This document shows positions 12,901 through 41,147 of a DNA stretch of 64,000 nt, piece after piece. The notes beneath the pieces were generated by a model. It was not told the DNA's origin and made no database searches. It saw only the letters and a list, made by a program, of their open reading frames with translations. The stretch is from an uncultured bacterium (GTDB lineage: Bacteria > Oederibacteriota > Muellerivitia > Muellerivitales > Muellerivitaceae), in assembly GCA_964392085.1 (NCBI GenBank), contig CAYMOV010000002.1, positions 27,314 to 91,313 of the forward strand, given 5' to 3'. The stretch's first letter is position 1. The number at the start of each line of letters is the position of its first letter. Both the position numbers and the translations under genes were made by a program.

Positions 12901-14523
12901 ATGCCGAACCTGACTGCCGAGTCGGTGTACCACCTGGTTTTGAAAGCGAGTTCGGTCAATGCGACCAGCTACGCGACGTGGCGGCTGGGGTCGAGTCCGG
13001 GACACCATTTGTATCCCTATGATCAGGTTTTGGATCCAAACCAAGCAACCTTGAAAAACGTAGGAGTGGGGTGGGCAACCTCGGTGGATCAGCCAATTTT
13101 CGCTTTAACGTATGGCGTATACCCGAATTTCAACTATGACGGAAACCCCTATGGAATCGGGACTGAATACCGGGTGAATGCCAGTTCATACTTGGGGGAG
13201 AGGTTCGTAGTGGCTGCGGCGCCGCTGACCCTGCAAGGGGTGGGTGCTTATGTGAAGAAGGTGGGAGTCCCGACTGCGGATCTACAGTGGCAGATTCAGA
13301 GGGAGTCAGACGGGACAACGGTTGTCTCGGGGACACTGGTCACGGCGGGCTCCGCGCCTGGGGCGTACCAGTGGGTGGATGCACCTACGACCGGGATCGT
13401 GCCAACCGGTGTATACCGGTTCGTCTTGTTGTCGGGTACCAATCCCGGAACTGATTACCGGTGGATTTCTGGAGGGGGAGAAGCTCTGCCGGGCGCATCC
13501 TCGATGACGTATGACGGGGATCGCGGGCGAGCCGTGACGTCGGCGACAGGGACCAATTGGATGAACATCAGCTATCTCGGATACACCAACGACGACTTCG
13601 CGTTCCGCATCCTACGGTCGACGGTTGCCGCGACCCCGACTGACACCCCGACATTTACCGCCACACCGAGTATAACTCCGACCCTAGATCCAACTGATAC
13701 CCCCTTCTTGACATCGACGCAGACCCCTACCGCTACCACGACTATTGATTTGAACCAAACCCCAAGTTTTACCGCGACCGCTGAATTGACCGATACGCCA
13801 ACCATTATTCCCCCCCTTACCTCGACTGACACGGCGACATCGACCATCCAATTAACGGTGACCTCCACTGAAACGCCAACAATGCAAAATACATACACGG
13901 AAACACCCACTTATACCGCCACACCCACCACCACCCCGCATACTTCTCCTACAAGCGCCATGACTCCACCACCGGGTGTTTATTGGGATTTGGCGGAATT
14001 CGGGAGATATCGACAAGCCGGCATAACACTCATATTCACTAATTTGCAGATATCCGCCAACAGAAGGCCGGATCCCACTGCGAGCGTGACCCTGACAACC
14101 CCCTTGGGGCCTGTGCCACTGGTTAACTTCATGAATACAGACACCTATTCTCATTTTTCTCCCTCGGGGGGTGTGTCTTATATACCAGGCGGAACCTACA
14201 TTCTCACAACCGTTACGTCGGCGGGCACCGCCGCCGCCACGTTGGTCGCACCCGGTGGAAATATTGTGATCACGCCGGATGGGAAGTCGGCCACATGGGA
14301 TGTTGAAGGGAATGAGGATTATTTATTCGACAACCAATTTGCTTCCTACAACGTCACGTCAGATATCGATTCGCCCTACAGCATTCCTGATTTGGCCTAT
14401 CCAGCCGCAGGGACCTATAATGTGTCGTTGTATTCACAAAACACGACCTATAACGTGAGCGGGGTTAGTGTGCCATGCCGTTTCACCATTAAAGATTCGC
14501 TTACGGTGCCAGTCGTTAAATAA
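9979..14523 (+). CDS. Giant secreted Thr-rich surface protein: signal peptide, FN3-like domain, Thr-rich 18-aa tandem repeats, two copies of a ~345-aa module of unknown fold, a second Thr-rich linker, C-terminal domain
   Basis: 1514-aa ORF. N-terminal hydrophobic signal (MMAFMVCVVLSAQVVHCFAQG). FN3-like LTLTSVGTRVILSWDPP...WFYKVEAYH. Repeats TxTKTxTPTxTRTGTxTF. Duplicated module NQAPVDGYD...DDFAFR(L/I)L. Confidence 0.8.
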   Translation: MGIHPGGFTKLFRLMMAFMVCVVLSAQVVHCFAQGRPPSNTPTPSMDPSTGPSNLTLTSVGTRVILSWDPPTNGLLTQPDGYRLWRAVLPGEAYNTIDGISSNAATASSPTAQDSPGYGTWFYKVEAYHATASGNYSQFSNVVGVNMGQHMTPTPTAASGLAYSLVQPLLANTSTFTRTPTRTFTPTVNRTGTATFTRTKTNTPTITRTGTFTFTPTKTGTPTVTRTGTATFTLTKTFSPTITRTGTFTFTPTKTATVTFTPTKTNTPTLNRTGTPTPTPTRTGTRTNTPTRTSTKTFTPSFTPTRTFTSTSTKTFTSTWTSTPTPSYSPTPTSTPTFTWTWTYTPSATFSATSTTTRTDTSTMTFTYTPTPSETFTPTDTFTFTSTFTLTDTFSPTDTPTSTPTSTCTDTPTSSDTFTPTWTDSATPTGTDTFTSTFSFTPTPTDTNTASPTDTTTNTFTATPTWTITDTPTLTATSTWTGTDTDTFTPVDTSTNTTTPTIASTATVTPTRTATATNTPSNTMTLTLTPSNTPAALPPGTNFVGNQAPVDGYDDFLMMSPTSQGSVRFTSRQSGTLTFVMVYFSQATGSPFYYAEIQGDNAGVPNGIVLGSSSTYLLGSNQWIMLMFGSTHLTAGTVYHLVMRAGTVDPSNYATWRIGTSPGHHLFPYDQVADPNQGTAKNLGAGWVASSEQPVFDLVFGAYPYSFDGNPYSVGTEYQVNSGSFLGERFVVAAAPLTLQGVGAYVKKVGSPTADLNWQIKSESNGATVASGTLVNAGAAPGTYQWVDASASVTLGTGIYRFVLLSGTAPGSDYRWISGNIGGGGGFGSTPLTYGGETARAGQSFDGINWSDFTSGQGYNDDFAFRLLQSTVAVTPTPTPTALPPGMDFVGNQAPVDGYDEFPMMNQAYQGSIRFTARRTDALNIVWLYFSQSTGGQYVVEIQADNAGVPSGTALARSVTFYGNYGWTMASFSPMPNLTAESVYHLVLKASSVNATSYATWRLGSSPGHHLYPYDQVLDPNQATLKNVGVGWATSVDQPIFALTYGVYPNFNYDGNPYGIGTEYRVNASSYLGERFVVAAAPLTLQGVGAYVKKVGVPTADLQWQIQRESDGTTVVSGTLVTAGSAPGAYQWVDAPTTGIVPTGVYRFVLLSGTNPGTDYRWISGGGEALPGASSMTYDGDRGRAVTSATGTNWMNISYLGYTNDDFAFRILRSTVAATPTDTPTFTATPSITPTLDPTDTPFLTSTQTPTATTTIDLNQTPSFTATAELTDTPTIIPPLTSTDTATSTIQLTVTSTETPTMQNTYTETPTYTATPTTTPHTSPTSAMTPPPGVYWDLAEFGRYRQAGITLIFTNLQISANRRPDPTASVTLTTPLGPVPLVNFMNTDTYSHFSPSGGVSYIPGGTYILTTVTSAGTAAATLVAPGGNIVITPDGKSATWDVEGNEDYLFDNQFASYNVTSDIDSPYSIPDLAYPAAGTYNVSLYSQNTTYNVSGVSVPCRFTIKDSLTVPVVK
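10500..11580 (+). repeat. Coding tandem repeat (about 54-bp period, Thr/Pro codon-rich) inside the giant surface protein gene
   Basis: Periodic ACC/ACG/CCG-rich units encoding T(R/P)TKTxTPT(I/V)TRTGT(A/F)TF. Decays into irregular Thr-rich low complexity. The minus strand reads as Val-rich shadow ORFs. Confidence 0.8.
11581..12615 (+). repeat. Copy 1 of an internally duplicated ~1.03 kb coding module (ALPPGTNFVGNQAPVDGYDDF ... FAFRLLQSTVAVTPTPTPT)
   Basis: About 60% amino-acid identity to copy 2 over about 345 aa, with collinear conserved blocks (GSPGHH(L/F)(Y/F)PYDQV, GERFVVAAAPLTLQGVGAYVKKVG, YRFVLLSGT). Confidence 0.8.
12620..13650 (+). repeat. Copy 2 of the duplicated module (ALPPGMDFVGNQAPVDGYDEF ... 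FAFRILRSTVAATPTDTPT)
   Basis: See copy 1. A near-identical 24-aa stretch GERFVVAAAPLTLQGVGAYVKKVG is shared. Confidence 0.8.
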
Positions 14524-14599
14524 ACCTACGATTTCCTTTGGGGCCAAAATGCCCCGATGCCAATTTCGTTGGAACTTTCGTCGTGCCATCTGCGATTTT

Positions 14600-14623
14600 T
14601 TTCGGTGACTGAAATTTGAACGA
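14600..14623 (+). promoter_or_regulatory. Degenerate copy of the TTTAAATG-N7-TTTGAACGA motif (TTTCGGTG-ACTGAAA-TTTGAACGA) in the AT-rich region upstream of the TPR/Exb operon
   Basis: TTTGAACGA is exact and the upstream half-site is 5/8. Sits about 200-400 bp upstream of the first operon gene. Confidence 0.35.
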
Positions 14624-15023
14624 CTTCCAAAATTCGATTTCCCCGATATTCAACTATCTGGATCCCAATGCGGAAATGCCCAAGGCTCCTCATTCCTTGT
14701 CCTTTAAATTGAAAAAGCCTGAAATGTTCTGCTGGTTATGGCGTGACTGATTACTGCGTCCCTGGAATCATTGAGGGTGTTTTGTAATAACCGAATGAAT
14801 TTACGGCGGGTCATAGGTGGACTCCGATGGGGTTGGGATTTTAAGCAATGGCTATTGTTCAAGGAGACCCCTGGGGCCCATAGGGGCTGGAACAGTGGGG
14901 CCGGGCAGGGGTCCTAGGGGGTGGAGCGGGGCCTCATTCCAGGCGCTTTCTGCTTCTAGGGGGCCCCAAGGGTGGGTATACTGGCCCACGAAACCACCAT
15001 CCTTGGGGGCGCAAAGACCCATC

Positions 15024-18020
15024 GTGATCCCGGAGAAAAGCCTGAAAGCCTCCTCCTTACCTATACGCCAAGTCCTGGCGCTTCTTCTCCTATTTGCGCC
15101 AGGCGGCATGGCCTGGGCCGCCGGTCCCTCGCCCATGGAAGAAGGCAAGGTCCTCCTTAAGGCTCGGGCCTACAAGTTAGCCCTGGAGCGGTTCTTGACC
15201 GCCGGGGAACGGTCCTCCGACGCCAGCGCCAAGGCCGAGGCCTTCCGCTTGGTGGCGGAAGCCCAGTTCCGGGCCAAGGATTTCGAGGCGGCCTATGAGG
15301 CCAGCCGACAGGCGATCCGGCTCGAGCCCCTCAGCTCCGCCGCCGACGATTCCGAGTTCCGCGCCGCCATCTCCCAGATCCACCTCCATGAGTTCCACTC
15401 CGCCCAGGCCGCATTGGAACGTTACCAGGCGACCCATCCCCACGGGGACCGGGCTTCCGACGTCCGGTTCTGGATCGGGGAATGCCTGTTCCAAACCGGA
15501 AAGTCCGCTGACGCCCAGGACCAGTACCGGAAGATCCTCGAGACTGACCCCAAGTACGCCCATACGGACCTCGTGCGGTTCCTCAACGCCTGGTGCTCCT
15601 ACCGGCTCGGCGCCTTCGAGGAGGCCCGCGAGGGCTTCGCCACGGCGCGGGACACCACGCTCGACCCGGCGCTCCAGAAACTGGCTTCCTTCCAGGTGGC
15701 CGAGGCGGATTACCGGTTGGGGCATTTCAAGGACGCCTCCGAAGGTTACTCGGCCTTCATGGACAAGTACCCGGGCGATTCGCTGGAACCCGCCGCACTT
15801 TATGGCTCAGGTTGGTCCAAGGCGAAGCTGAACGATTCCGCCGGAGCCCAGGCGGCGTTCGGCAAGGTCGTGTCGGGTTGGGGCTCCCATCCCCTGGCCC
15901 CCTGGGCCGCGGTTCGGCAGGGCGTCAACGCCACCCTCGCGGGGAAGACCGACGACGCCCGGGCGGCCTACGGCAAGGCCCTCGACCTGGCGGCGGGCAA
16001 GCCGCCCGCGGACCAGGCCGCCTTCGGCCTGGGTTGGATCGACTTCAAGGACGGCAAACGGAAGGACGCGGCCGAACATTTCCGTTTGACGGCGAATTTC
16101 CAGCCCGAGAGCCCCCTGAAGAACGACGCGACTTACCTGTTGGCGGGCTGCCTCTACCTTGACGGTAAGACCGACGACGCGCTTCCTTACTATGAGCGCC
16201 TGGCCCAGGCGAAGGCGGGTGAGTTGTCCACCGCCTCCGCCTATTGGAGCGGTTGGTGCTATTACGCCCAGGGCCGCGCGAAGGACGCCTTGGACCGTTT
16301 CCTCAAGCCGCCCGCCGGGATCGGGAGCCCCTGGAAGGCCCGGTTCCTCTGGGCCGCCGCCGAGTCCGCCTACCGGTCCGGCGATAAGGCCCAGGCGCGG
16401 CGCCTTTACCAAAAGTCCCTCGATGTCCCCAACAGCCCGGTGGCCCAAGAGGCCTGGCTTGGGTTGGGTTGGTGCTGGTTCGACGACGAGAACTACGATG
16501 AGGCCTACAAGGCGTTCCAAAAAGCCGCAGCCGCCAAAAGCGGTAATTCCGCCTCGGTGGAGGCCCGCCTCCGGGCAGGAGATTGCCTCTACAACCTGCA
16601 CCGTTACGGTGAGGCGGAGGGAGCCTACAAGGCCCTGGCGGATTCCAAACCCGGGGGCGACACCGAATTGGACGCCCTGGAACAATGGGGCTGGTGCGCC
16701 TACCGACAGGACCGTTACGGCGACGCGGACAGCCGGTGGAAGGCCCTGCTGGCCAAGCCTGAGGCGGCGGACCGGGCACCCCGGCTGAGGTATTGGATCG
16801 CCTGGTCGAAGTTCCGCGCCAAGAAATTCGAGGAGGCCGCCGACGCCTTCCAACAGGTCCTGGACAAGGACCCGGACCATCCCCTGGCCGCCGAGGCGCT
16901 CCTGCGGATCGGCGACTGCTATTTCAACCTGGGCCGCTTCAACAAGTCCCTCGAGACCTACCAGAAGTTCCTCAAGGCCTACCCCGACCACCGGCTCCTG
17001 CCGGACGCCCTCTACGGGGTGCAATGGTCCTACGAAAAGATGGGGAAGAAGGGGGAGGCGGCCAAGGCCGCCCAGCAATTCCTGGTCGATTACCCCAAGT
17101 CCGCATTCGCCCCCGAGGTCCAATACCGCTTGGCCGACACCCTTTACCACGACGAGAAGTTCGACAAGGCCGCGGCGGCCTACCAGGAACTGCTCGACAA
17201 GTACCCCAAGAGCGCCCAGGCCCCCCGGGCCCTGTTCTGGCTCGGCACGGCCCAGGTGAAGATCGACAAGCTTTACGAGGCCTCCCTGACCTTCAAGAAG
17301 CTCCTGTCCGACTTCCCCGACGATCCCCTCACCCTCGAGGGGCGCTTCAGCCTGGGGTCGGTTTACTTCCAACAGAAGGACTACCTGAACGCCTTGGACG
17401 CCTACCGGTACGTGTCCGACAAGTTCCCGACCCACCGGTTGGCGCCCCACGCCCTCTTCAACGCGGCCATCTGCGCCAAGGAAATGCACCAGGAGGACCG
17501 CGCCCTCAAGATGTTCGAGCGCCTGAGGGTGGAGCACGCCGCCGATCCCCTGGCCGACGAGGCCTCCCTCCAGTCGGGCATCCTGCTGGAACAGGCGGGG
17601 CGTCTCCCCGAGGCCTTGGCGGCCTACGACCAGGCCAAAAAGATCCCGAAGGAATCGTTGGCCGTGGAGGCCACCTACGACCACGCCCAGCTCCAGATGA
17701 CGATGAAGAACTACGACGCGGCGGCCGAGGAGTTCAACTTCCTCACGATCCATTACCCCAAACAGGACCAATGGGTGGTGACGGCCTTCGCGAGGATCGC
17801 GGAGTGCTATGAGGCCCAGTCCAAATACCAGAAGGCCGCGGACACCTATAAGCGCATCCTGAAATACACCGGCGTTAAGGAATGGCGTGATTCCGCCCAG
17901 AAACGCCTGGACGCCCTCCAACCCTTCCTCACCCCGACGCCCGGCGTACCGGGCGGGACACCCGCCAAAGCAAAAAAGAAACCCGCCAAGAAGCGCAAGA
18001 AGGCGGTGGCGAAACCATGA
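15024..18020 (+). CDS. Large tetratricopeptide-repeat (TPR) protein with signal peptide, about 1000 aa, Lys-rich C-terminus
   Basis: A GTG at 15024 gives a classic signal peptide (IPEKSLKASSLPIRQVLALLLLFAPGGMAWA/AGP). The ORF is open from an ATG at 14817, but that upstream part is Gly/Pro-rich and looks non-coding. Many TPR-like motifs (Y..A...Y..LL..YP). C-terminal KAKKKPAKKRKKAVAKP. Its stop overlaps the next start (ATGA at 18017). Confidence 0.7.
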   Translation: MIPEKSLKASSLPIRQVLALLLLFAPGGMAWAAGPSPMEEGKVLLKARAYKLALERFLTAGERSSDASAKAEAFRLVAEAQFRAKDFEAAYEASRQAIRLEPLSSAADDSEFRAAISQIHLHEFHSAQAALERYQATHPHGDRASDVRFWIGECLFQTGKSADAQDQYRKILETDPKYAHTDLVRFLNAWCSYRLGAFEEAREGFATARDTTLDPALQKLASFQVAEADYRLGHFKDASEGYSAFMDKYPGDSLEPAALYGSGWSKAKLNDSAGAQAAFGKVVSGWGSHPLAPWAAVRQGVNATLAGKTDDARAAYGKALDLAAGKPPADQAAFGLGWIDFKDGKRKDAAEHFRLTANFQPESPLKNDATYLLAGCLYLDGKTDDALPYYERLAQAKAGELSTASAYWSGWCYYAQGRAKDALDRFLKPPAGIGSPWKARFLWAAAESAYRSGDKAQARRLYQKSLDVPNSPVAQEAWLGLGWCWFDDENYDEAYKAFQKAAAAKSGNSASVEARLRAGDCLYNLHRYGEAEGAYKALADSKPGGDTELDALEQWGWCAYRQDRYGDADSRWKALLAKPEAADRAPRLRYWIAWSKFRAKKFEEAADAFQQVLDKDPDHPLAAEALLRIGDCYFNLGRFNKSLETYQKFLKAYPDHRLLPDALYGVQWSYEKMGKKGEAAKAAQQFLVDYPKSAFAPEVQYRLADTLYHDEKFDKAAAAYQELLDKYPKSAQAPRALFWLGTAQVKIDKLYEASLTFKKLLSDFPDDPLTLEGRFSLGSVYFQQKDYLNALDAYRYVSDKFPTHRLAPHALFNAAICAKEMHQEDRALKMFERLRVEHAADPLADEASLQSGILLEQAGRLPEALAAYDQAKKIPKESLAVEATYDHAQLQMTMKNYDAAAEEFNFLTIHYPKQDQWVVTAFARIAECYEAQSKYQKAADTYKRILKYTGVKEWRDSAQKRLDALQPFLTPTPGVPGGTPAKAKKKPAKKRKKAVAKP

Positions 18021-19762
18021 ACAAACCGAACCTTCCGAAAGCCATGATGAGGGCGTTCCTTTTCCTGCTCGCAGTCGCCCTCCTCCAGTCCGGACGGCTA
18101 TCGGCGGCTGACCAGATCTCCCAGCCGGCACCCCCGGAGTCGGCCCCAGAGGCGGCGCCGGAGGCGCCGGCCGCCGCGCCGGCCGAGAAGGCGCCTCCCG
18201 CCGCGCGCCCCACGGCCCAACCCCAATTCACCCTGCCCGAAGTGGTCATCACCGGGGACAACCAGCTCACGATCGGGGCCCAGCGGTTGGATCTCCGGGA
18301 GGACGACGTGACCCTCGGTTCCAAGGACCTCCGCGGGCTCAACCGGGCCTCCGACGACCTGCCGGGGCTCGACCAGTCCAGGACCGGTGTTTCCGCCCTC
18401 TCGCCGGAACCCCCGCGCGATACGGTGGGTATCCTGCACCTGGGCGCGGGCCTCAAAAAAAGCCTGGAGGGTTGGGGCTTGTTCGGGCACCAAGACAAGG
18501 CATTCCAAATCCTGCTTAAGGGCTTCGGCGACCGGTACGGGGGAGAAGTCGCGGGGCCGGGCCGAACCGCCTCGGACAGCTTGGGATGGGGCGCCGTGCT
18601 CCAAGCGCAACCTACCGACCGGCTGAAGTTCCATTTCTCACGCCAATTCGAGCAGACCCACCATGACCTGCCTTGGCAGTCCGGCGGGGAAAACCGGAAA
18701 CCCGTGGATCTCGACGGAAGCGCGGCCTGGAGCTTCGCGTCCGACTGGACCCTGTCCTTGAAGGGCGCCGCTTCCGATACCCGTGTGGACGCGGCCGATC
18801 CCTTGATCCCTCCGGTCACTGCCCGGGAACGGCGGGGTAGCGCCCGGGTCGAATATGAGGGCCCGTCCTGGGCCGAATCCCTTTGGGCCGAGGGCGGGGT
18901 GAAGACCTCCCGGATCGACCTGGCCCCGCCGGTCCTGTCGGCCTACGACGACTCTTGGGCCAAAATCGGGACGCGCTTGCGGCCCTCGAACAAGCTGGGT
19001 CTTACTGCATCCTGGGGATTCACCCGGTTCGCGAAACTGGACTTGCCGGACCGGGGGGAACCCTCGGTGGAACTCGAGTTCCTGCCCCTGGAGGCGACCC
19101 GGGTCCGGATCCATTGGAAAAGCGCCCGCTCACTGCCTTCGTTCCGCGACCTTGAAGGGGAGGCCTTCACCACTTTGCCCGTCAACGGCCTTCCGGTCCC
19201 CGGATGGATCCGGGATGAAATCGGGGGGGATCTCACGCACCGCTGGGGGGACCGTTTGACGGCCACCCTCGGGGGGCGGGCCTGGTGGGAGGAGAACCGT
19301 TCCCAATGGGAGGAGTCCTCGCTCCTCGAGAACCGCCAGGTCCTGGAATCCTTGGGGCTGGTCCGGCTTTGGGAAGGGACCGCGGGCCTGGAGTGGACGC
19401 CGCTCCCTTCCCTCGTGGCCCGGGCCGACCTGCGGTACGGTGAGGCCCAAGACCGCTCCGGGACCGACCTGCGGGTCACCGGTTGGGCCAGGCAACAGGC
19501 CCAGTTCAGCGTCGGCCACAGTCGGCCGGGCGCGTCCACCCGCCTCTTCGTCATGGCGTCGGGACGCCGGGAGGGGGATTCCTCGAACCCGGTTCCCTTG
19601 TCACCTTACTGGACCTTGGGTTTGGAGACCCGGCGGGATTTGGGCGGTCACGTGACGCTTTGGGGCCGGGCGGACAACCTGACGGGCCAGCGGTACGAGA
19701 TCCGGCCGGGCTATCCCGAGCCGAGGTTCCTCGCGCGGGTCGGGTTGGAAGTTGTTTTTTAA
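18017..19762 (+). CDS. Outer-membrane beta-barrel protein (TonB-dependent-receptor-like or porin-like), C-terminal Phe
   Basis: Signal peptide MMRAFLFLLAVALLQSGRLSAA. Pro/Ala-rich linker. Alternating amphipathic beta-strand pattern. Ends ...RVGLEVVF, a typical OMP C-terminal signature. Confidence 0.6.
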   Translation: MNKPNLPKAMMRAFLFLLAVALLQSGRLSAADQISQPAPPESAPEAAPEAPAAAPAEKAPPAARPTAQPQFTLPEVVITGDNQLTIGAQRLDLREDDVTLGSKDLRGLNRASDDLPGLDQSRTGVSALSPEPPRDTVGILHLGAGLKKSLEGWGLFGHQDKAFQILLKGFGDRYGGEVAGPGRTASDSLGWGAVLQAQPTDRLKFHFSRQFEQTHHDLPWQSGGENRKPVDLDGSAAWSFASDWTLSLKGAASDTRVDAADPLIPPVTARERRGSARVEYEGPSWAESLWAEGGVKTSRIDLAPPVLSAYDDSWAKIGTRLRPSNKLGLTASWGFTRFAKLDLPDRGEPSVELEFLPLEATRVRIHWKSARSLPSFRDLEGEAFTTLPVNGLPVPGWIRDEIGGDLTHRWGDRLTATLGGRAWWEENRSQWEESSLLENRQVLESLGLVRLWEGTAGLEWTPLPSLVARADLRYGEAQDRSGTDLRVTGWARQQAQFSVGHSRPGASTRLFVMASGRREGDSSNPVPLSPYWTLGLETRRDLGGHVTLWGRADNLTGQRYEIRPGYPEPRFLARVGLEVVF

Positions 19763-19847
19763 AACCATTTAACACAGGGACCACCGAGTGCACAGGGACG
19801 GCGGTCGACTCTTAGATTGAAGAGCAAGCAACTTACGGAGGGGTTTC

Positions 19848-20462
19848 ATGACGCACGAATTCTCGCTGTTGCAGGTCATGCTCAAGGGGGGATGGGTCAT
19901 CGGTTTCCTCCTGATCCTCTCCGTCCTGGCATTGGCCATCCTGATCGACCGCTGGCGGGCTTTCGCCCGTTCGGGCCGGGACCGGGGGGAATTGATGAAG
20001 TCCGTGGAGCCATTCTGGAAAAAGAACCCCCAGGAGGCCGCGGCCTCCTGTGAGCGGGACGGCAGTGTCCCGGCCCTGGCCCTGGCGGCCGGGTTAAGGG
20101 CCAAGAAGGACGGCACCGGGGACCCGCGAGGCGCCATGGACCGCGAGGCCAAGGCCCGTTTGATGGACCTAGAGACCCGGTTGCCCCTGTTGGGAACCCT
20201 CGGGAACCTGGCCCCCTACATCGGCTTGTTCGGCACTGTCCTGGGGATCATCCGCGCCTTCCGTGACCTCTCCCTGGCCAACGCCGGGGGCGCCGCCGTG
20301 GTGAGCCAGGGGATCGCCGAGGCCCTGGTGGCCACCGCCTCGGGCCTTTTCGTGGCGGTCCTGGCCAGCGCGGGGTTCAATTACTTCCAATCCCGGCTGG
20401 ATGTCCTGGCCCGCGAGACCGAACTGGTGATCGACGAGGCCGCCGAAAAACTCCAGGACTGA
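19848..20462 (+). CDS. exbB: MotA/TolQ/ExbB proton-channel family protein
   Basis: Three TM segments and the conserved LGTLGNLAPYIGLFGTVLGII...AIAEALVATASGL block of TolQ/ExbB. RBS GGAGGGG upstream. Confidence 0.85.
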   Translation: MTHEFSLLQVMLKGGWVIGFLLILSVLALAILIDRWRAFARSGRDRGELMKSVEPFWKKNPQEAAASCERDGSVPALALAAGLRAKKDGTGDPRGAMDREAKARLMDLETRLPLLGTLGNLAPYIGLFGTVLGIIRAFRDLSLANAGGAAVVSQGIAEALVATASGLFVAVLASAGFNYFQSRLDVLARETELVIDEAAEKLQD

Positions 20463-20492
20463 CCTTTTCGCCGTGATTCCCCGGGAGGCAAG

Positions 20493-20978
20493 ATGGAAAA
20501 CCGATTGAGGCACAAGACCAAGCTCATCACCGACATCAACATGGTGCCCTTCACCGACGTGGTGCTGGTGCTGTTGGTGATCTTCATGGTGACCACCCCT
20601 TTCCTGTTCCAGGGCGACTTCCAGGTGAGCTTGCCCAAGGTGGCGGCCCCGAACCCCAATATCCCCGAGGCCCTGACGCTCACGGTCGCCCAGGGTGGCC
20701 GGTTGGCGTTGAACGGCCAGGAGATCAAGTTCGAGGAACTGGCCGAGAAGATCGGGGTTTTGATGAAGCAGAACCCCAACCAACAAGTGGTCATCGAGGC
20801 CGACAGCGGGGTGTCCCACGGGACCGTCATGGGCGTCATGGGGGAAGCCTACGCGGCCGGGGTGACGAAGATGGGCATCGCGGTGGAGCAAAGCCACGGA
20901 TCGGTCGTGGAGCAGAACCCAAGCCCCGCAGGGGCGCAGAATCCAGGCGCCGCCGTGGCGCCCGTCACGGCGAAGTAA
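20493..20978 (+). CDS. exbD: ExbD/TolR biopolymer transport protein
   Basis: INMVPFTDVVLVLLVIFMVTTPF TM motif with the conserved Asp, plus a periplasmic domain. 161 aa. Confidence 0.85.
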   Translation: MENRLRHKTKLITDINMVPFTDVVLVLLVIFMVTTPFLFQGDFQVSLPKVAAPNPNIPEALTLTVAQGGRLALNGQEIKFEELAEKIGVLMKQNPNQQVVIEADSGVSHGTVMGVMGEAYAAGVTKMGIAVEQSHGSVVEQNPSPAGAQNPGAAVAPVTAK

Positions 20979-21021
20979 AGGGTAGCTGATCCGGGAACTT
21001 AAACCGGGAAAGGAGGCGGCC

Positions 21022-21795
21022 ATGGACAAGAACTTCGGACAGTCGTTCCTCATCTCGCTCGGCGTCCACCTGGCCCTGTTCCTGGTCCTTTTCGGGGTCC
21101 TGGGGACCTTCCTCGTGGCCCGGACGCCTGCCTTCATGGAACTCACCCTCATCGGCATCAGTTCCCGCGGCGACGGGCCCGGCGCCCAACAGACCCTGCG
21201 GGGCGAGACCTCCGTTTCGCCGGAGGCCGCCGACCCCGGAAAAGGGGACACCTTCTCAAGCCCCAAGGTGAAGTCCGACCTGAAACAGCAGGCCGCTCCG
21301 AAGGCAGGGGACCTCGCGGTCAAGCGGCCTACGCCCTCAACCGCCCAGACCAGCAAGTCCGACCAATCGGCCTACCTCCAGGCCCTTCACCAATCGGCGC
21401 CCATCGGGATTTCCCCGAAGCGGGCCGTGCCCGACAGCATCAAGACCACCGCGGGGCTGGGCTATGGAGGCGTGACGGGCACCCCCAACGGCCGGGTGGA
21501 CATTGAGGGCGAACTGGCGGCCCGGGGCATCCAACGGAAGGTCGTGCCCGCCTACCCCGATTGGGCCAAGAAGCAGGGCGTCGAGGGGACCATCCAATAC
21601 CGGGTCACGGTGCTCCCGAACGGGTACCTGCGCGACGACGTCCAATTGGAGCAGACCAGCGGGTGGCGTGAACTGGACCGACAGGCTTATGAGGCCCTGC
21701 TCCAATGGGAGTTTGACCCCCTGCCCTCCGCCATGCCCCAGGTCAACCAATCGGGGTTGGTGACCTTCAACTTCAGCTTCAAGAACCAACCGTGA
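21022..21795 (+). CDS. tonB: TonB/TolA-like energy transducer (N-terminal TM anchor, Pro/Ser-rich linker, TonB C-terminal domain)
   Basis: N-terminal TM LISLGVHLALFLVLF. C-terminal domain with PAYPDWAKKQGVEGTIQYRVTVLPNG...V, typical of the TonB_C fold. Confidence 0.7.
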   Translation: MDKNFGQSFLISLGVHLALFLVLFGVLGTFLVARTPAFMELTLIGISSRGDGPGAQQTLRGETSVSPEAADPGKGDTFSSPKVKSDLKQQAAPKAGDLAVKRPTPSTAQTSKSDQSAYLQALHQSAPIGISPKRAVPDSIKTTAGLGYGGVTGTPNGRVDIEGELAARGIQRKVVPAYPDWAKKQGVEGTIQYRVTVLPNGYLRDDVQLEQTSGWRELDRQAYEALLQWEFDPLPSAMPQVNQSGLVTFNFSFKNQP

Positions 21796-23894
21796 GAGCC
21801 CGCGGGTTCTTGGCCTTGTCGTTCCTGGCGGCCTGGGCCCTGGGCCTCCAATTGGTCGCCCCGGGCCTCATGGCGGGGGATTCCCCCGAATTGGCGGCCT
21901 CGGCCTACGGTTGGGGAATCTCCCACCCTCCCGGTTATCCCCTTTGGACCCTGTTGGCCCACCTCGCCGGTTCCATCCCCTTGGGATGCCCCGCCTTCCG
22001 GACGAACCTCGTCTCCCTTTTCCCGACCGCCCTCGCGACTGCGGCCTTGGGGTTCCTCCTGGCCCGCCGGACCGGTGGGGGCGCCCTCGGGGAATGGGTG
22101 GGTTACGGGACGGCTTTTTTCATCGGGACGGGTCCCTTGTTCCTGGACCAAGCCACCGGCACCGAAGTCTACGGTCTCCATGGGTTGATCCTGACGGGCC
22201 TCCTGGCCCTCACCCTGGAAATTTCCTCCGAGCGTTTTTACGCCGTGATGTTCCTCGTGGGGCTCGGCGTGGCCCACCACCACCTACTGCTCCTCTTCCT
22301 GCCGGCGATCGGTTGGGCCTACCGGGATTTCCTGCGAAGACCCTCCTTCCTCCTGAGGGGGATGTCGCTCGTAGGTTTGGGCCTCTCGCTTTATTTGCTC
22401 CTGCCCATCCGGGCGTTGGCCCATCCGGCGGCGGATTGGAGCCGTCCCGATACCTGGACCCAATTTTGGAGCCACGTGAGCCGAAACCAATACGGCGGGG
22501 ATCTCCAAAGCGGGGCCTTCCTCCACGCCCTTTGGAACGCTTTGTTTTTTTGGAAGGACATCCTACGGGACGGTTGGTTCTTGGCGGGGATCCTCGCGTC
22601 CTGGGGGATCTGGACCCGGCGGAAAGCCTGGAGGGGTGAAATCCCGATCGCCTTAGGCCTGGCGGGTTTGGGCCTGGGCCTGCCGTTGCTCCTTCGGGTA
22701 CATCCCGATCCCCAAAACAACTCGGTCATGGAGGCCTTTTTCCCCCCGATGATGATCTGGGGATCCCCTTGGGTGGCGGTAGGGCTCCAGGGGCTATCCG
22801 CGCGGATGTCACGACCCTGGGTCCGGACGGTCGGGGCCCTCCTGCTCACCGGATTATTGGCCGCGCGGGTTGGCTCCGCCCTTTTTGTCTCGAGCCAATC
22901 CCGAAACCTCGCCTGCGAGGACATGGGCCGCAACTTCCTCTTGAACCTGCCCCGGGGCGCGGCTCTCTACAGCGAGGGTGATACGGCCACGTTTCCATTG
23001 GCTTACCTAAAGCAGGTAATGGGTCTCCGGCCCGACGCCGAGGTTTTCGACCGGACCGGTGGGCTGTTCGGCGATTTTTACGGCTTGCTCGATGTCGGGG
23101 GGACTGGGTCGGAGGATCCGACGGTTATGGTCCGAAAGGAACGGGGCCGCGAGTCTTCCCATCCAAGCCAATCCATCTTTTACAGCGAGAAGGAGACTGC
23201 TCCCGGCAGGACCCTGGCCCCAGCCGGGTTCCTCTTCCAGGCGACTGACTCGGGCGCGCCCTCCTGGGACGAGTCCAAGTTTTGGCCGAGGGCCCGGGAG
23301 CCCCGGGCGGGTTTGGCCCAGGACTTCCTCAGCCGGGAAACCGGCGCCCGGTTCTACGTCTTCCGCGCCCTGGCGGGGCTCCGGGGCAAAGCCCCCCTGG
23401 GGAAGATCCGGGACGACTTCGCCGGGACGGCGCGTTTGGCCTGGGACAATACCCGTGTCCTGAATAACGTGGGGATGGAAACCCTCAGGGCGGGATGGGT
23501 GGACGGGAGCCTTCCGTATTTTGAAGGCGCCGTGGAGCAGGATCCGGACTTCACCCTGGGCTGGTACAACCAGGGAATCGTCGCGCGGCAACAGGGTCGG
23601 ACCCGGGACGCGGTCCAGTTCTTCCAAAGGGCGCTCCAGGCGGACCCGGCCTACAGCCCGGCGCGGGACAGTTGGGCGATCCTCCTCTACAACAACGGCC
23701 ATCCCCCGGAGGCCGTGGACCAATGGCAGAGGCTCCTGGAACTCGATCCGTCCTACGCCCCGGGGTACCGGAACCTGGGTTTCGCACTCGCCACCCAGGA
23801 CGTGACGATGTCCAAACAACTCCTGGCCCGGTACCTCCAAATAAACCCGGGTGCCCCTGAACGGGCCCAGGTCGAGGCTTTGTTGAACCATTGA
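21792..23894 (+). CDS. Polytopic membrane protein of the DUF2723/TMEM260-like (GT-C-fold-like) family with C-terminal TPR repeats
   Basis: N-terminal motif AGDSPELAASAYGWGISHPPGYPLWTLL matches the D-x-GE-(L/F)-x-x-A-x-x-LG-x-x-HPPG-YPL signature of DUF2723. 8-10 predicted TM helices, then TPR-like repeats (WYNQGIVARQQGR..., AYSPARDSWAILLYNNGH...). Start overlaps the tonB stop. Confidence 0.55.
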   Translation: MRARGFLALSFLAAWALGLQLVAPGLMAGDSPELAASAYGWGISHPPGYPLWTLLAHLAGSIPLGCPAFRTNLVSLFPTALATAALGFLLARRTGGGALGEWVGYGTAFFIGTGPLFLDQATGTEVYGLHGLILTGLLALTLEISSERFYAVMFLVGLGVAHHHLLLLFLPAIGWAYRDFLRRPSFLLRGMSLVGLGLSLYLLLPIRALAHPAADWSRPDTWTQFWSHVSRNQYGGDLQSGAFLHALWNALFFWKDILRDGWFLAGILASWGIWTRRKAWRGEIPIALGLAGLGLGLPLLLRVHPDPQNNSVMEAFFPPMMIWGSPWVAVGLQGLSARMSRPWVRTVGALLLTGLLAARVGSALFVSSQSRNLACEDMGRNFLLNLPRGAALYSEGDTATFPLAYLKQVMGLRPDAEVFDRTGGLFGDFYGLLDVGGTGSEDPTVMVRKERGRESSHPSQSIFYSEKETAPGRTLAPAGFLFQATDSGAPSWDESKFWPRAREPRAGLAQDFLSRETGARFYVFRALAGLRGKAPLGKIRDDFAGTARLAWDNTRVLNNVGMETLRAGWVDGSLPYFEGAVEQDPDFTLGWYNQGIVARQQGRTRDAVQFFQRALQADPAYSPARDSWAILLYNNGHPPEAVDQWQRLLELDPSYAPGYRNLGFALATQDVTMSKQLLARYLQINPGAPERAQVEALLNH

Positions 23895-24929: not shown

Positions 24930-25574
24930 ATGAAATTGCCCGTCCAAACCAGTTATTCCCGAGCCGGTCAATCCTCGTTTGGGACCCGGCGCCTTCGTCT
25001 CCTGGCCTTGGCCTTTGGGATCCTCGGGGTGTTCGGTTACGGCCCGGTCCCGGATCGGACCGCCGTTCCCGAGCCGCCGCCCCCCCCGACGGCGACTTCG
25101 ACCGACAGCCCCGCCTCGACCCCCACGGGGACCCTCACGCCGCCCCCCAGTCCCACCCCCACGGGTTCCCCGACGGCCACGCCCGTGATCGTATTGCCGG
25201 TTTACCTGGAACCGACCGAAACGGCGACGCCGGTGGTGCCGGTCCCCACCCAAGAGTTGGACGACGTGGGGCCTGTCCCGACGCTGCCCGAACTGTCGGT
25301 CTTCCCGAATCCCGCCCAGGATAAGAACGTTTATTTCCGCTTCAGGTCCCCGGAGGATTGGAAGGTGGTGGTGCGTATCTTCGATTCCTACGGCGACGAG
25401 GCGGCCCGCCTCGATCAGGAAGGCAAGGACACCTTCGACCTCCCATGGGCCTTGGGCAAGATCGAGTCGGGCATCTATTACTACCGGATCACCGCGGAGC
25501 ACTTGGCGTCCGGACGGATCCTGCGGTACCCCGTGGGCCGGTTCGTCGTGGACCGCATCAAGACCCGCAAATAG
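24930..25574 (+). CDS. Small secreted protein with Pro/Thr-rich linker and a Por/T9SS-type C-terminal beta-sandwich (FlgD-Ig-like) domain
   Basis: Signal peptide RRLRLLALAFGILGV. PPPPPTATSTDSPASTPTGTLTPPPSPTPTGSPTATP linker. C-terminal LSVFPNPAQDKNVYFRF...GIYYYRI resembles the T9SS sorting-domain consensus. Confidence 0.5.
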   Translation: MKLPVQTSYSRAGQSSFGTRRLRLLALAFGILGVFGYGPVPDRTAVPEPPPPPTATSTDSPASTPTGTLTPPPSPTPTGSPTATPVIVLPVYLEPTETATPVVPVPTQELDDVGPVPTLPELSVFPNPAQDKNVYFRFRSPEDWKVVVRIFDSYGDEAARLDQEGKDTFDLPWALGKIESGIYYYRITAEHLASGRILRYPVGRFVVDRIKTRK

Positions 25575-37474: not shown

Positions 37475-37551
37475 GCCCTCGTAGCTCAGATGGATAGAGC
37501 GACCCTTTCCTAAAGGGTAGGCCACGTGTTCGACTCACGTCGAGGGTACCA
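37475..37551 (+). tRNA. tRNA-Arg: tRNA-Arg (anticodon CCU)
   Basis: Acceptor GCCCTCG/CGAGGGT, D-arm GCTC-AGATGGATA-GAGC, anticodon arm ACCCT-TTCCTAA-AGGGT, T-arm ACGTG-TTCGACT-CACGT, encoded CCA. Confidence 0.8.
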
Positions 37552-39989: not shown

Positions 39990-41147
39990 TCAACCGGCGT
40001 TACCCCAGGCCTGGATCAACCGATCCAGGCCTTTTTCATAGGTCCCCGGCTCGCCCAATAGGCTGATGACCCAAAAGCCATCCACTGGAAAATCAAAAAA
40101 GGCGCCGGGAAGGGCCCAAACGCCCCGATCCAAGAGCCGTCTGGCCATCAATTCGTCCCCCAAGGCGGGATCCACCTGTTGAACCAGGGCCGACCACCCG
40201 CCTTCCGAAGGCCAAAGGCGCCATTGGCTTCCGAGGGGCGCCAAGGCGCGGTCCAACCGACCTTTGTTTTCCAAGACCCGGGTTAGGATGGCTTCCCGTA
40301 CGTCCCCTCCCATCCTCAGGAGATCCGGTAAAGACAACAGCACGGGCGATCCGACCGAAAGGGCCAGGTCGGCCGAGAATTCCAGCCGCTCCTTGGCTTG
40401 TGCCACCAACCGGGTCGGCCCACGGAGGCCCATCCAGGAACACTTTAATTGCGGCAACCCACAGGATTTGGAAAGCCCACCGAGGGTGAAGGTCAAGGCC
40501 TGTGGTTCGAAGGAGACCCGTTTCGGTTTCCCCGTCCAACCGTAATCCCAAAAGACCTCATCGAGGACCAGGGCCCATTGGTTTTTGGCGCAGAGGGAAT
40601 CCAGGAACTTCAAGTCCGATGGGGAGAGGTAGGTGCCGGTCGGGAAATGGGGGGTGATCGCCACCAAGACCCTGGCTTGGTCCTGGGGAATGGACTCCAG
40701 GGCCTGACGATCCAGGGGCCAACCCGGTTTGGCGATCAACGGATAACCCATGGGCTGGAGTCCCTCGGCCTGGGAAAGGTGAGCCAAGAGGGGGTACCCG
40801 GGGGTGGGGAAGAGTACGCCCTGCCCCGGATCCGCCATGAGCTTCATAACCAGTGAATAGGCCTCGCTGGTACCGGAAGTCAGGAAGAGGTCGTCGGGGG
40901 ATTGGGTTTGACCTTGACGTTGATACTCTAGGGCCACAGCTTCCCGTGACGGTCTCAATCCCTGTGGGTCGGGTTCGTAGGGACCGATGGAGATTCGAAG
41001 ATCTTTGAGACCAGACGGATAGGGAAGTCCCACGACCGTCGGATTGGAGGAGGACAAGTCGATCAGGCTGTCCTTTTGGGACTCGATCGCCTGAAAGAGC
41101 TCATTGGGGCTTAAATCCTCCGGATATCTGGATGAAAAGTTCAACAT
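39990..41147 (-). CDS. Pyridoxal-phosphate-dependent aminotransferase (class I/II fold)
   Basis: LTSGTSEAYSLVMKLMADPGQGVLFPTPGYP and the PLP-lysine block FTLGGLSKSCGLPQLKCSWM. Confidence 0.75.
   Translation of the reverse strand: MLNFSSRYPEDLSPNELFQAIESQKDSLIDLSSSNPTVVGLPYPSGLKDLRISIGPYEPDPQGLRPSREAVALEYQRQGQTQSPDDLFLTSGTSEAYSLVMKLMADPGQGVLFPTPGYPLLAHLSQAEGLQPMGYPLIAKPGWPLDRQALESIPQDQARVLVAITPHFPTGTYLSPSDLKFLDSLCAKNQWALVLDEVFWDYGWTGKPKRVSFEPQALTFTLGGLSKSCGLPQLKCSWMGLRGPTRLVAQAKERLEFSADLALSVGSPVLLSLPDLLRMGGDVREAILTRVLENKGRLDRALAPLGSQWRLWPSEGGWSALVQQVDPALGDELMARRLLDRGVWALPGAFFDFPVDGFWVISLLGEPGTYEKGLDRLIQAWGNAG

What the first reader, a model, noticed from the sequence alone, without database searches (positions are those of the whole stretch)
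14524..23894. Operon coupling a giant TPR protein, an outer-membrane barrel, ExbB-ExbD-TonB-like motor and a DUF2723/TMEM260-like TPR membrane protein
Six plus-strand genes are arranged with stop/start overlaps or short gaps: TPR protein, then OMP (ATGA overlap at 18017), then ExbB, ExbD, a TonB-C protein, then the DUF2723-TPR protein (ATGA overlap at 21792). This strongly suggests one transcript. The combination does not match canonical Tol-Pal, which has no TolB, Pal or YbgC here, although a TolB-like propeller is fused to a membrane protein 27 kb away. It also does not match a plain TonB-ExbBD iron-uptake unit, because the barrel is only 581 aa and TPR scaffolds are present. TolQ/TolR-type motors with TPR scaffolds, beta-barrels and TonB-C proteins are also the parts list of proton-motive-force-driven envelope machines such as the myxobacterial Agl/Glt gliding apparatus. 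Adding a GT-C-like DUF2723 protein is unusual. This is a candidate uncharacterised envelope system, possibly for energised surface-protein export or modification.
Basis: partly seen in the sequence, partly recalled or inferred. Interest (0 to 1): 0.8.

Follow-up and report, generated by a model that had tools for sequence, protein, structure and literature searches.

The report
Plug-less TonB-type barrel with motor
An uncultured bacterium carries a conserved gene block in which a proton-driven TolQ/TolR/TonB-type motor is paired with a TonB-dependent-transporter-type outer-membrane barrel that has lost its plug and with a 1000-residue TPR scaffold. This is an undescribed variant of the Ton/Tol envelope machines, and in this lineage a TMEM260-type glycosyltransferase gene is attached to it.

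Summary
Six co-directional genes lie at 15024-23894: a TPR protein, an outer-membrane protein (OMP), TolQ-like, TolR-like and TonB_C proteins, and a DUF2723/TMEM260-TPR protein. The second overlap is GTGA, not ATGA.

The 581-aa OMP is not a generic small barrel. It models as a 22-strand barrel (pLDDT above 90). All top 50 Foldseek matches are TonB-dependent transporters (TBDTs), and hhalign to bona fide TBDTs gives 99.4% probability. It has no plug domain. Its most conserved segment is an N-terminal TonB-box-like motif, P-x-F-x-LPEVVITG.

The five-gene core TPR-OMP-TolQ-TolR-TonB_C recurs in distant uncultured relatives with different flanking genes, one of them a candidate division FCPU426 MAG. 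The TPR/OMP 4-nt overlap is kept in 8 of 9 loci.

The DUF2723 gene is translationally coupled only in the window's subclade. Of 80 diverse DUF2723 loci, 2 have TolQR nearby, which is chance level.

My best reading is a dedicated Ton/Tol-type module that applies proton-motive-force-driven pull to a plug-less TBDT barrel under a CpoB-like TPR scaffold. Whether it maintains the envelope, exports or imports is unresolved. It is not Tol-Pal and not Agl/Glt. I rate it a new variant of a known kind.

The parts
14524..15023 (.). 500-nt intergenic region upstream of the TPR gene; presumed promoter/leader region
   Evidence: No ORF continues from the upstream gene. No Rfam family matches at E<=1. The promoter scan is not above shuffles. 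Upstream genes differ among relatives, so the unit starts here.
15024..18020 (+). Periplasmic giant TPR scaffold: 998 aa, about 10 YbgF/CpoB/BamD-type TPR units, Sec signal peptide, no lipobox, Lys/Ala/Pro-rich C-terminal tail
   Evidence: TIGR02795 285 bits in 10 stretches; BamD subfamily 165 bits; many Pfam TPR families. Start inferred from the signal peptide and homologue lengths. Homologues share 27-62% identity over nearly the full length in all related loci. The basic tail recurs in most relatives.
18017..19762 (+). Outer-membrane protein, 581 aa: a TBDT-family 22-strand beta-barrel without a plug domain
18215..18268 (+). TonB-box-like motif (residues 67-84, AQPQFTLPEVVITGDNQL) in the N-terminal extension of the OMP
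   Evidence: This is the most conserved 20-residue window of the 30-sequence family alignment. G80 is invariant and P74 is at 0.97. The motif is identical in all close homologues. A similar box, LPTEVVIKG, occurs in the protein after TonB in the Elusimicrobiota locus L098. Binding to the TonB C-terminal domain is inferred, not shown.
19848..20462 (+). TolQ/ExbB-type stator subunit (204 aa)
   Evidence: PF01618 E 2e-28. The best NCBIfam model is tolQ (111 bits, below the cut-off of 221), ahead of exbB at 64 bits.
20493..20978 (+). TolR/ExbD-type stator subunit (161 aa) with the conserved transmembrane Asp (PFTDVVL)
   Evidence: PF02472 E 3e-27. The best NCBIfam model is tolR (96 bits, cut-off 127). 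The Asp-containing transmembrane helix is conserved in all loci.
21022..21795 (+). TonB/TolA-type force transducer (257 aa): N-terminal TM helix with S-x3-H, a beta-strand 'motor box', a linker, and a TonB_C domain
   Evidence: PF03544 52 bits (cut-off 24.6); TIGR01352 44.6 bits. The TM motif and the post-TM strand FMELTLIG are conserved across relatives. The 'motor box' concept is from PMC12204202.
21792..23894 (+). DUF2723/TMEM260-type GT-C glycosyltransferase with a C-terminal periplasmic TPR domain (700 aa). Start GTG overlaps the tonB stop (GTGA). Subclade-specific accessory gene.
   Evidence: PF11028 57 bits plus TPRs. D30 (GDSxEL), H45-PPGYPL, E125, R231 and G396-D397 are invariant with vertebrate TMEM260. 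The overlap with tonB is conserved in 6 of 7 loci. The gene is absent from L094, L097 and L098.
24930..25574 (+). Small secreted protein with a Thr/Pro-rich linker and a T9SS C-terminal sorting domain. It is a conserved downstream neighbour; association with the block is uncertain.
   Evidence: TIGR04183 23.4 bits (cut-off 23); PF18962 E 6.5e-5. A homologue sits after DUF2723/FabD in L001, L005, L007, L008 and L092.

Best explanation
The block is a dedicated Ton/Tol-type trans-envelope module.

Proposed mechanism:
- A TolQ-TolR stator in the inner membrane converts proton-motive force into movement of a TonB-type transducer. The transducer has an S-x3-H TM helix, a motor-box strand, a linker and a TonB_C domain.
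- The transducer's C-terminal domain engages the invariant TonB-box-like strand (PQFTLPEVVITG) on the roughly 100-residue periplasmic N-terminal extension of a 22-strand TBDT-family barrel.
- This barrel has no plug domain. Only about 50 conserved residues lie between the box and the barrel. Pulling would therefore gate a wide channel, or mechanically couple the outer membrane to the motor, rather than unfold a classical cork.
- The ~1000-aa periplasmic TPR protein is built of CpoB/BamD-like units and is translationally coupled to the barrel gene. It is the periplasmic scaffold or partner of the barrel.
- In the window's subclade, a TMEM260-type GT-C glycosyltransferase with a periplasmic TPR domain is co-expressed with the transducer as a lineage-specific accessory. 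It is probably a protein O-glycosyl(mannosyl)transferase acting on Thr/Pro-rich envelope proteins.

Shown: the domain identities, the barrel fold and its homology, the absence of a plug, the conserved motif, and conservation of the five-gene core in different genomic contexts.

Inferred: TonB-box binding, the TPR-barrel complex, and the physiological role.

My split for the role: envelope maintenance or outer-membrane tethering about 0.4, macromolecule export about 0.25, import about 0.2, other about 0.15.
For: - Domain calls.
- The barrel has 22 strands at pLDDT above 90, and the N-terminal residues 24-132 are unstructured.
- The Foldseek top 50 are all TBDTs. hhalign to Plug-containing TBDTs gives 99.4% over the barrel only.
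- The distant hits of the OMP profile scanned against Pfam (10 proteins) fall into two groups: plug-less proteins of 566-595 aa that share the N- and C-terminal motifs, and bona fide TBDTs.
- The N-terminal motif is the most conserved window of the family.
- The five-gene core is conserved with different flanks in L094 and in the FCPU426 MAG L097. All six genes are conserved in L092, where Der is only 38% identical.
- The TPR/OMP 4-nt overlap is kept in 8 of 9 loci and the TonB/DUF2723 overlap in 6 of 7.
- The TolR Asp, the TonB S-x3-H and the motor-box strand are conserved.
- A giant CpoB-like TPR gene also precedes ExbB-ExbD-ExbD-TonB in an Elusimicrobiota MAG. TPR-tolQ-tolR-tolR-transducer clusters in the PVC group are noted in PMC12204202.
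- The DUF2723 residues shared with vertebrate TMEM260 are conserved. TMEM260 is a protein O-mannosyltransferase (PMC10214176).
Against: - There is no direct evidence for co-transcription. The promoter/terminator scan is uninformative, and tight + strand packing continues into housekeeping genes.
- Most relatives also conserve the downstream fabD-der-plsY-gpsA genes, so part of the synteny is lineage-wide gene order.
- Absence of a plug rests on a lack of HMM or profile hits and on low AF2 confidence. A novel small plug formed by residues 86-135 is not excluded.
- No multimer model was possible, so the TonB-box and TPR-barrel contacts are untested.
- The rest of the genome is unseen, so I cannot say whether this is the only TolQR/TonB set or whether a canonical Tol-Pal exists elsewhere.
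- L097's barrel gene is interrupted by masked or undetermined bases and possibly a frameshift, and the Pfam TonB_C match of its transducer is sub-threshold.
Confidence: 0.55

Rival explanations
1. It is a functional analogue, or an evolutionary intermediate, of Tol-Pal. TolQ-TolR-TolA-like proteins pull on an integral outer-membrane anchor, the TBDT-derived barrel. That anchor takes the place of TolB-Pal, with a multi-CpoB scaffold, to tether or invaginate the outer membrane and coordinate peptidoglycan remodelling at division.
For: - The stator subunits score best against tolQ and tolR rather than exbB and exbD. The TPR protein is made of YbgF/CpoB-type units.
- In L007, an OmpA-domain lipoprotein and a LysM lipoprotein lie immediately upstream. 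In L004, a LysM lipoprotein does.
- In L094, SpoIID and QueA lie downstream.
- The block sits among housekeeping envelope and lipid genes (fabD, plsY, gpsA).
- PMC12204202 argues that TolA arose from a TonB paralogue, that TolB arose from an OMP family, and that CpoB is ancestral to Tol-Pal.
Against: - No TolB or Pal lies in or near the block in the window.
- The L007 OmpA lipoprotein scores 48.8 bits against a Pal cut-off of 125. The PD40 protein scores 50 against a TolB cut-off of 343.
- The tolQ, tolR and tolA equivalog cut-offs are not reached.
- A 22-strand barrel is not needed for a mere anchor.
- Whether a canonical Tol-Pal exists elsewhere in the genome is unknown.
Confidence: 0.22
2. 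It is an ordinary TonB-dependent nutrient-uptake unit: a housekeeping exbB-exbD-tonB operon next to a small BtuB-like receptor. The TPR and DUF2723 genes are merely neighbours.
For: - The barrel is homologous to TBDTs and is BtuB-sized. The closest structural matches are PqqU and BtuB.
- A TonB-box-like motif is present.
- The weak NCBIfam hits are to TBDT models.
Against: - No Plug domain is found by Pfam, by profile-profile comparison or by AF2.
- The TPR gene overlaps the barrel gene by 4 nt in 8 of 9 loci and travels with it into unrelated contexts.
- No riboswitch lies in the 500-nt leader.
- The family is rare and restricted: 15 hits at E<1e-30 among 1.84 billion representatives.
Confidence: 0.12
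3. It is an energised export route for a polymer or for glycoproteins. A TPR scaffold plus an outer-membrane barrel act as in BcsC, PgaA or AlgK-AlgE, or as the TBDT Oar does in PopC secretion. The route is powered by TolQR-TonB, and the GT-C enzyme glycosylates the cargo.
For: - A TBDT is required for protein secretion in Myxococcus (PMC6434023, abstract listed).
- The DUF2723 gene is coupled to tonB.
- Thr/Pro-rich secreted proteins flank the block, at 9979-14523 and 24930-25574.
- A second DUF2723 paralogue lies in the window.
Against: - No synthase, flippase or polymerase gene lies in the block.
- The barrel is TBDT-type with 22 strands, not a 16-18-strand exopolysaccharide porin.
- DUF2723 is absent from the core module in L094, L097 and L098 and is not linked to TolQR in 78 of 80 other loci.
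Confidence: 0.12
4. It is an Agl/Glt-like gliding or surface-motility machine.
For: The parts list is shared: a TolQ/TolR motor, a TonB_C protein, TPR proteins and an outer-membrane barrel. The Agl/Glt 'core complex' also occurs outside myxobacteria with unknown function (PMC3169522).
Against: - The NCBIfam Glt and AgmX models fall far below their cut-offs: GltC 19 against 450, GltE 37 against 225, AgmX/PglI tail 16 against 40.
- There is one TolR-like gene, not two.
- The transducer has no FHA domain.
- The barrel is TBDT-type, unlike GltA, GltB or GltH.
Confidence: 0.03

Closest known systems
Ton system (ExbB-ExbD-TonB plus a TonB-dependent transporter, e.g. BtuB)
   Same: It has a 5:2-type stator pair and a transducer with an S-x3-H TM helix and a TonB_C domain. 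The outer-membrane partner is a 22-strand barrel homologous to TBDT barrels, with the TBDT C-terminal motif and an N-terminal TonB-box-like strand.
   Different: There is no Plug domain. Only about 50 conserved residues lie between the box and the barrel. A ~1000-aa TPR protein is translationally coupled and co-conserved. The stator scores closer to TolQ/TolR than to ExbB/ExbD. The motor is encoded with one dedicated barrel.
Tol-Pal system (TolQ-TolR-TolA-TolB-Pal-CpoB)
   Same: It has a TolQ/TolR-like stator, a TonB_C/TolA-like transducer, CpoB-type TPR units, a housekeeping envelope context, and an OmpA lipoprotein adjacent in one relative.
   Different: There is no TolB and no Pal in the window. 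The CpoB-like units are multiplied about 10-fold in a single 998-aa non-lipoprotein. A TBDT-type barrel occupies the outer-membrane position.
TPR-tolQ-tolR-tolR-transducer clusters of PVC bacteria (vWA 'force transducers', Williams-Jones et al. 2025, PMC12204202)
   Same: An uncharacterised TPR gene sits directly upstream of a TolQR-type motor and an inner-membrane-anchored transducer. Giant-TPR homologues of the window protein occur in Planctomycetes MAGs, and in an Elusimicrobiota locus with the order TPR-ExbB-ExbD-ExbD-TonB.
   Different: Here the transducer has a TonB_C domain, not a vWA domain, and there is one TolR-like gene. A TBDT-type barrel gene is inserted between the TPR and motor genes. 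Homology of the PVC TPR gene in that paper to this one was not tested here.
Vertebrate TMEM260 (protein O-mannosyltransferase, GT-C)
   Same: PF11028 N-terminal module, invariant loop-1 Asp (GDSxEL) and the HPPGYPL motif, a C-terminal TPR-type domain on the non-cytoplasmic side, 21-25% identity in the A2 alignment (PMC10214176).
   Different: It is bacterial, and its gene overlaps a tonB-type gene. Donor and acceptor are unknown. No bacterial member is characterised in the searched literature.
Myxococcus Agl/Glt core complex
   Same: The parts list is the same: TolQR-type motor, TonB_C-type protein, secreted TPR proteins, and outer-membrane barrels.
   Different: It fails every Glt family model tested. 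Stoichiometry and domain architectures differ.

Membership tests
TonB-dependent transporter (TBDT) family, for the OMP | 22-strand beta-barrel homologous to PF00593 | tested here: met
   AF2 gives 22 strands at pLDDT above 90. The Foldseek top 50 are all TBDTs, E about 1e-19. hhalign to TBDTs gives 99.4%, E 4e-21. Pfam PF00593 itself is not hit directly by the window protein; it is hit only by more distant family members.
TonB-dependent transporter (TBDT) family, for the OMP | N-terminal Plug (cork) domain PF07715 filling the barrel | tested here: not met
   No Plug hit even at E<=10 for 7 family members. hhalign aligns only residues 227-584. AF2 leaves residues 24-132 unstructured. Only about 50 residues lie between the box and the first strand.
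TonB-dependent transporter (TBDT) family, for the OMP | TonB box that binds the TonB C-terminal domain | tested here: inconclusive
   A conserved P-x-F-x-LPEVVITG motif sits at the expected position. Binding could not be modelled or measured.
Ton system motor (ExbB-ExbD-TonB) | MotA_ExbB and ExbD family proteins with the TM Asp, and a TonB with an S-x3-H helix and a TonB_C domain | tested here: met
   PF01618, PF02472 and PF03544 all score above their cut-offs. The motifs are visible in the sequence and conserved. The exbB, exbD and tonB equivalog models are below their cut-offs.
Tol-Pal system | TolB beta-propeller and Pal lipoprotein encoded with tolQRA | tested here: not met
   Neither is in the block or elsewhere in the window. 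The PD40 protein at 50149-52167 scores 50 bits against a TolB cut-off of 343. The L007 OmpA lipoprotein scores 48.8 against a Pal cut-off of 125.
Tol-Pal system | TolQ, TolR and TolA equivalogs | tested here: not met
   tolQ 111 against 221, tolR 96 against 127, tolA_full 23.7 against 59 bits. These are still the best-scoring motor models.
Tol-Pal system | CpoB/YbgF protein | tested here: inconclusive
   TIGR02795 scores 285 bits (cut-off 90), but as 10 repeated units in a 998-aa protein. Full-length CpoB (NF008068) scores 86 against 383.
Agl/Glt gliding machinery | GltC/D/E/G-type proteins and an AglR plus AglQ/AglS motor | tested here: not met
   GltC 19 against 450, GltE 37 against 225, AgmX/PglI tail 16 against 40 bits. 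There is a single TolR-like gene.
TMEM260/DUF2723 GT-C glycosyltransferases | PF11028 N-terminal GT-C module with the loop-1 catalytic Asp | tested here: met
   PF11028 scores 57 bits (cut-off 24.2). D30 and neighbouring motifs are invariant across bacterial and vertebrate members.
TMEM260/DUF2723 GT-C glycosyltransferases | Protein O-mannosyltransferase activity | not testable with these tools
   Known only for human TMEM260 (PMC10214176).
Synthase-dependent exopolysaccharide export (BcsC / PgaA / AlgK-AlgE) | 16-18-strand porin with a TPR domain or partner, encoded with a synthase | tested here: not met
   The barrel has 22 strands and is of TBDT type. No synthase lies in the block.

The most novel reading that the evidence does not exclude
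The module is an extant intermediate between Ton and Tol-Pal. In this reading a TBDT that lost its plug has been converted into a fixed outer-membrane anchor. A TolQR-TonB/TolA motor pulls on that anchor under a multi-CpoB scaffold, and an OmpA lipoprotein is adjacent in some members. It would then be the envelope-integrity and division machine of a poorly known candidate-phylum-level lineage that lacks TolB-Pal. In the window's subclade a TMEM260-type O-glycosyltransferase has been recruited to it.
Probability: 0.15. Interest if true: 0.85.

Novelty: new variant of a known kind. Interest (0 to 1): 0.62.

Why it matters
TonB-dependent transporters are defined by a barrel plus a plug, and force on the TonB box is thought to work by remodelling that plug. 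A conserved family that keeps the 22-strand barrel, the TonB-box position and a dedicated TolQR-TonB motor but has no plug poses a direct question: what does the motor do to such a barrel? It might gate a very wide channel, or it might pull on the outer membrane.

The family's obligatory partner is a 1000-residue scaffold made of CpoB/BamD-type units. This bears on the current debate about how Tol-Pal arose from Ton-like ancestors (PMC12204202). It also adds to the unexplored 5:2-motor machines noted there.

The translational coupling of a bacterial TMEM260 homologue to a tonB-type gene gives a first genomic handle on the unknown function of bacterial DUF2723 enzymes. It should be weighed cautiously because the link is confined to one subclade.

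Tried and rejected
1. General DUF2723-TolQR linkage is rejected. Of 80 diverse DUF2723 loci from metagenomes, 2 had TolQ/TolR within 10 kb, in both cases on the opposite strand. In L024 they are separated from the DUF2723 gene by unrelated genes. A 27%-identical DUF2723 homologue (L009) has no motor nearby.
2. Agl/Glt membership is rejected on the family models.
3. The TolB identity of the PD40 membrane protein about 27 kb away is rejected.
4. Sequence searches with the OMP gave nothing against Pfam or PDB sequences. Homology only emerged through the exhaustive profile search and profile-profile comparison.
6. The riboswitch search of the 500-nt leader found nothing.
7. The promoter/terminator scan was not above shuffles.
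8. Taxonomy could not be assigned. The genome-collection hits are titled only 'uncultured bacterium', and the cluster look-up gave no organism names for the close relatives. The only named relatives of the TPR protein are MAGs of FCPU426, Elusimicrobiota, Planctomycetes and Bacteroidota.
9. The afdb50 fold library was unavailable.
10. tblastn found no second TolQ, TolR, TonB or TBDT and no Pal in the 64-kb window.

Full report
**Observation.** ORF listing and translation confirm six consecutive + strand genes. Pfam and NCBIfam identify them as follows.
- A TPR protein. TIGR02795, the YbgF/CpoB-type TPR model, scores 285 bits in 10 stretches. BamD-type and many other TPR models also hit.
- A 581-aa protein with no Pfam hit and a single sub-threshold NCBIfam TBDT hit.
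- A MotA_ExbB protein (best NCBIfam model tolQ).
- An ExbD protein (best model tolR).
- A TonB_C protein.
- A TMEM260-like (PF11028) protein with C-terminal TPRs.

The TPR gene most likely starts at GTG 15024 (998 aa). That start gives a Sec signal peptide and matches homologues of 977-1003 aa. Positions 14524-15023 are intergenic. Co-directionality says little on its own, because all the genes I assigned in the first 37 kb of the window are on the + strand.

**The barrel.** The OMP has only seven word-index homologues. An exhaustive profile search of 1.84 billion representatives found 15 proteins at E<1e-30. Among the weaker hits, a Pfam scan of ten showed plug-less proteins of 566-595 aa and bona fide TBDTs carrying Plug plus TonB_dep_Rec domains. 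The wider ~546-595-aa group I aligned (A4 and the extra A5 members) shares the N-terminal and C-terminal motifs.

Profile-profile comparison gives 99.9% to that wider group over the full length. It gives 99.4% (E 4e-21) to plug-containing TBDTs, but only over barrel residues 227-584.

No Plug domain is detectable by Pfam at E<=10, by PDB sequence search or by hhalign.

The most conserved stretch of the whole family is P-x-F-x-L-P-E-V-V-I-T-G at residues 69-80, with G80 invariant. It lies where a TonB box lies in TBDTs. The TBDT-type C-terminal motif is the next most conserved. The OMP is therefore a TBDT-family barrel that keeps a TonB-box-like strand but lacks the cork.

**Synteny.**
- Close and intermediate relatives (OMP 31-48% identical) all carry TPR-OMP-TolQ-TolR-TonB_C-DUF2723 as far as their contigs reach. 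They also share the downstream fabD, T9SS-tail protein, der, plsY, gpsA, HU and merR genes. Part of this synteny is therefore lineage-wide gene order.
- Upstream genes differ: S1 plus a LysM lipoprotein, SHMT, an OmpA lipoprotein, or the 1514-aa Thr/Pro-rich protein. This fixes the left edge of the unit.
- L092/L093 (Der 38% identical) still has all six genes with both 4-nt overlaps, but no fabD.
- L094 has TPR(1000 aa)-OMP(566 aa)-MotA_ExbB-ExbD-TonB_C followed by a UvrD-type helicase, SpoIID and QueA. It has no DUF2723.
- A candidate division FCPU426 MAG (L097) has TPR(995 aa), an interrupted barrel gene, MotA_ExbB, ExbD and a weak TonB_C protein, followed by RNase PH. It has no DUF2723.
- An Elusimicrobiota MAG (L098) has a 1112-aa CpoB-type TPR protein followed by ExbB-ExbD-ExbD-TonB_C. 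Next comes a 356-aa protein carrying an LPTEVVIKG box.

The TPR/OMP overlap is kept in 8 of 9 loci and the TonB/DUF2723 overlap in 6 of 7. The five-gene core thus moves as a unit, and DUF2723 is a subclade-specific addition.

**The DUF2723 gene.** It retains the residues that are invariant between bacterial members and vertebrate TMEM260: D30 in GDSxEL, HPPGYPL, E125, R231 and G396-D397. Human TMEM260 is a GT-C protein O-mannosyltransferase whose TPR-like domain is proposed to select substrates (PMC10214176).

Across 80 diverse DUF2723 loci from metagenomes, only 2 have TolQ/TolR within 10 kb, in both cases on the opposite strand. In L024 the two are separated by unrelated genes. That is about chance level. 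A second DUF2723/PMT_2 paralogue lies at 56647-58638 in the window. Thr/Pro-rich secreted proteins flank the block. They are plausible but untested acceptors.

**Mechanism.** Three features of Ton/Tol force transduction are conserved in all relatives:
- the TolR transmembrane Asp (PFTDVVL);
- the S-x3-H motif in the TonB TM helix;
- a beta-strand directly after the TM helix, the 'motor box' of PMC12204202.

The best-supported mechanism is therefore Ton/Tol-type force transduction from a TolQR stator, through the TonB_C protein, to the N-terminal box of the plug-less barrel. The translationally coupled giant TPR protein acts as the periplasmic partner. These contacts are inferred; no multimer modelling was available.

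The physiological role is open.
- The CpoB/BamD-type units, the TolQ/TolR-like scores, the neighbouring OmpA and LysM lipoproteins in relatives, and the housekeeping context all lean towards envelope maintenance.
- The wide unplugged barrel plus a TPR scaffold also fits macromolecule export. Compare the TPR-porin exopolysaccharide exporters, and the TBDT Oar in PopC secretion (PMC6434023).
- TBDT ancestry fits import.

**Comparison with known systems.**
- It is not Tol-Pal. TolB and Pal are absent and the equivalog cut-offs are not met.
- It is not Agl/Glt. The Glt models fail, and the resemblance is only a parts list (PMC3169522).
- It resembles a Ton system but fails the defining plug criterion.
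- The nearest described relatives in gene organisation are the uncharacterised TPR-tolQ-tolR-tolR-transducer clusters reported in PVC bacteria (PMC12204202).

I found no description of a plug-less TBDT family paired with a giant TPR protein, and no characterised bacterial DUF2723 enzyme, in the searched literature. That library is incomplete.

**Verdict.** I classify the module as a new variant of the Ton/Tol kind of proton-motive-force-driven envelope machine, of moderate-to-high interest. The main limits are that the organisms are uncultured and that only 64 kb of the genome is visible.

Noticed in passing
window 9979-14523 (+): A 1514-aa secreted protein with very long Thr/Pro-rich tracts (TPTxT-type repeats) and two internal ~330-aa duplicated domains (ALPPG.NFVGNQAPVDGYD...FAFRLLQSTVA). 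It has no Pfam or NCBIfam hit. The codon bias produces a strong negative GC skew (-0.26) and a lower GC content at 10-14 kb. It is not present at this position in relatives. It is a possible O-glycosylation substrate.
   Followed up: partly
window 56647-58638 (-): A second DUF2723/TMEM260-like (PF11028, PMT_2) GT-C paralogue of 663 aa, 25% identical to the one in the block, next to mutL. The lineage carries several such enzymes.
   Followed up: partly
window 50149-52167 (-): A 672-aa protein with a hydrophobic, apparently multi-pass N-terminal half (judged from the sequence; no topology tool was run) and a C-terminal PD40 beta-propeller. It scores only 50 bits against a TolB cut-off of 343, so it is not TolB.
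   Followed up: yes
window 24930-25574 (+); L001, L005, L007, L008, L092: A small protein consisting of a signal sequence, a Thr/Pro-rich linker and a T9SS C-terminal sorting domain. It is conserved between DUF2723 (or fabD) and der across the subclade, and overlaps both neighbours in L092. Its function is unknown and it may belong to the unit.
   Followed up: partly
L098 16261-17331 (Elusimicrobiota MAG): The 356-aa protein after TonB carries an N-terminal LPTEVVIKG box similar to the OMP's TonB-box-like motif but has no barrel-sized C-terminus. It has no Pfam family. It may be an alternative target of the transducer in that lineage.
   Followed up: partly
L007 639-2505: A LysM lipoprotein and a 168-aa OmpA-domain lipoprotein (lipobox LNGC) lie directly upstream of the TPR gene in this relative. 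L004 has the LysM lipoprotein. The OmpA protein is below the Pal equivalog cut-off.
   Followed up: yes
window 40000-44000; 41605-42678 (-): A tyrosine recombinase (phage integrase family) lies in a stretch of lower GC (0.55 against about 0.62), a few kb from tRNA-Arg (37475-37551). This may be an integrated element.
   Followed up: no
window 58666-62127 (-): A signalling pair: an FHA-GAF-adenylate/guanylate cyclase (520 aa) and a Ser/Thr protein kinase with an NHL beta-propeller (602 aa). MurJ follows at 62813-63976.
   Followed up: no
L097 8928-9854 (FCPU426 MAG); L094 17714-18369: Weak UPF0164/PorV-like outer-membrane proteins lie near the core module in two distant relatives. Together with the T9SS sorting domains, this hints that these lineages have a type IX secretion system.
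   Followed up: no
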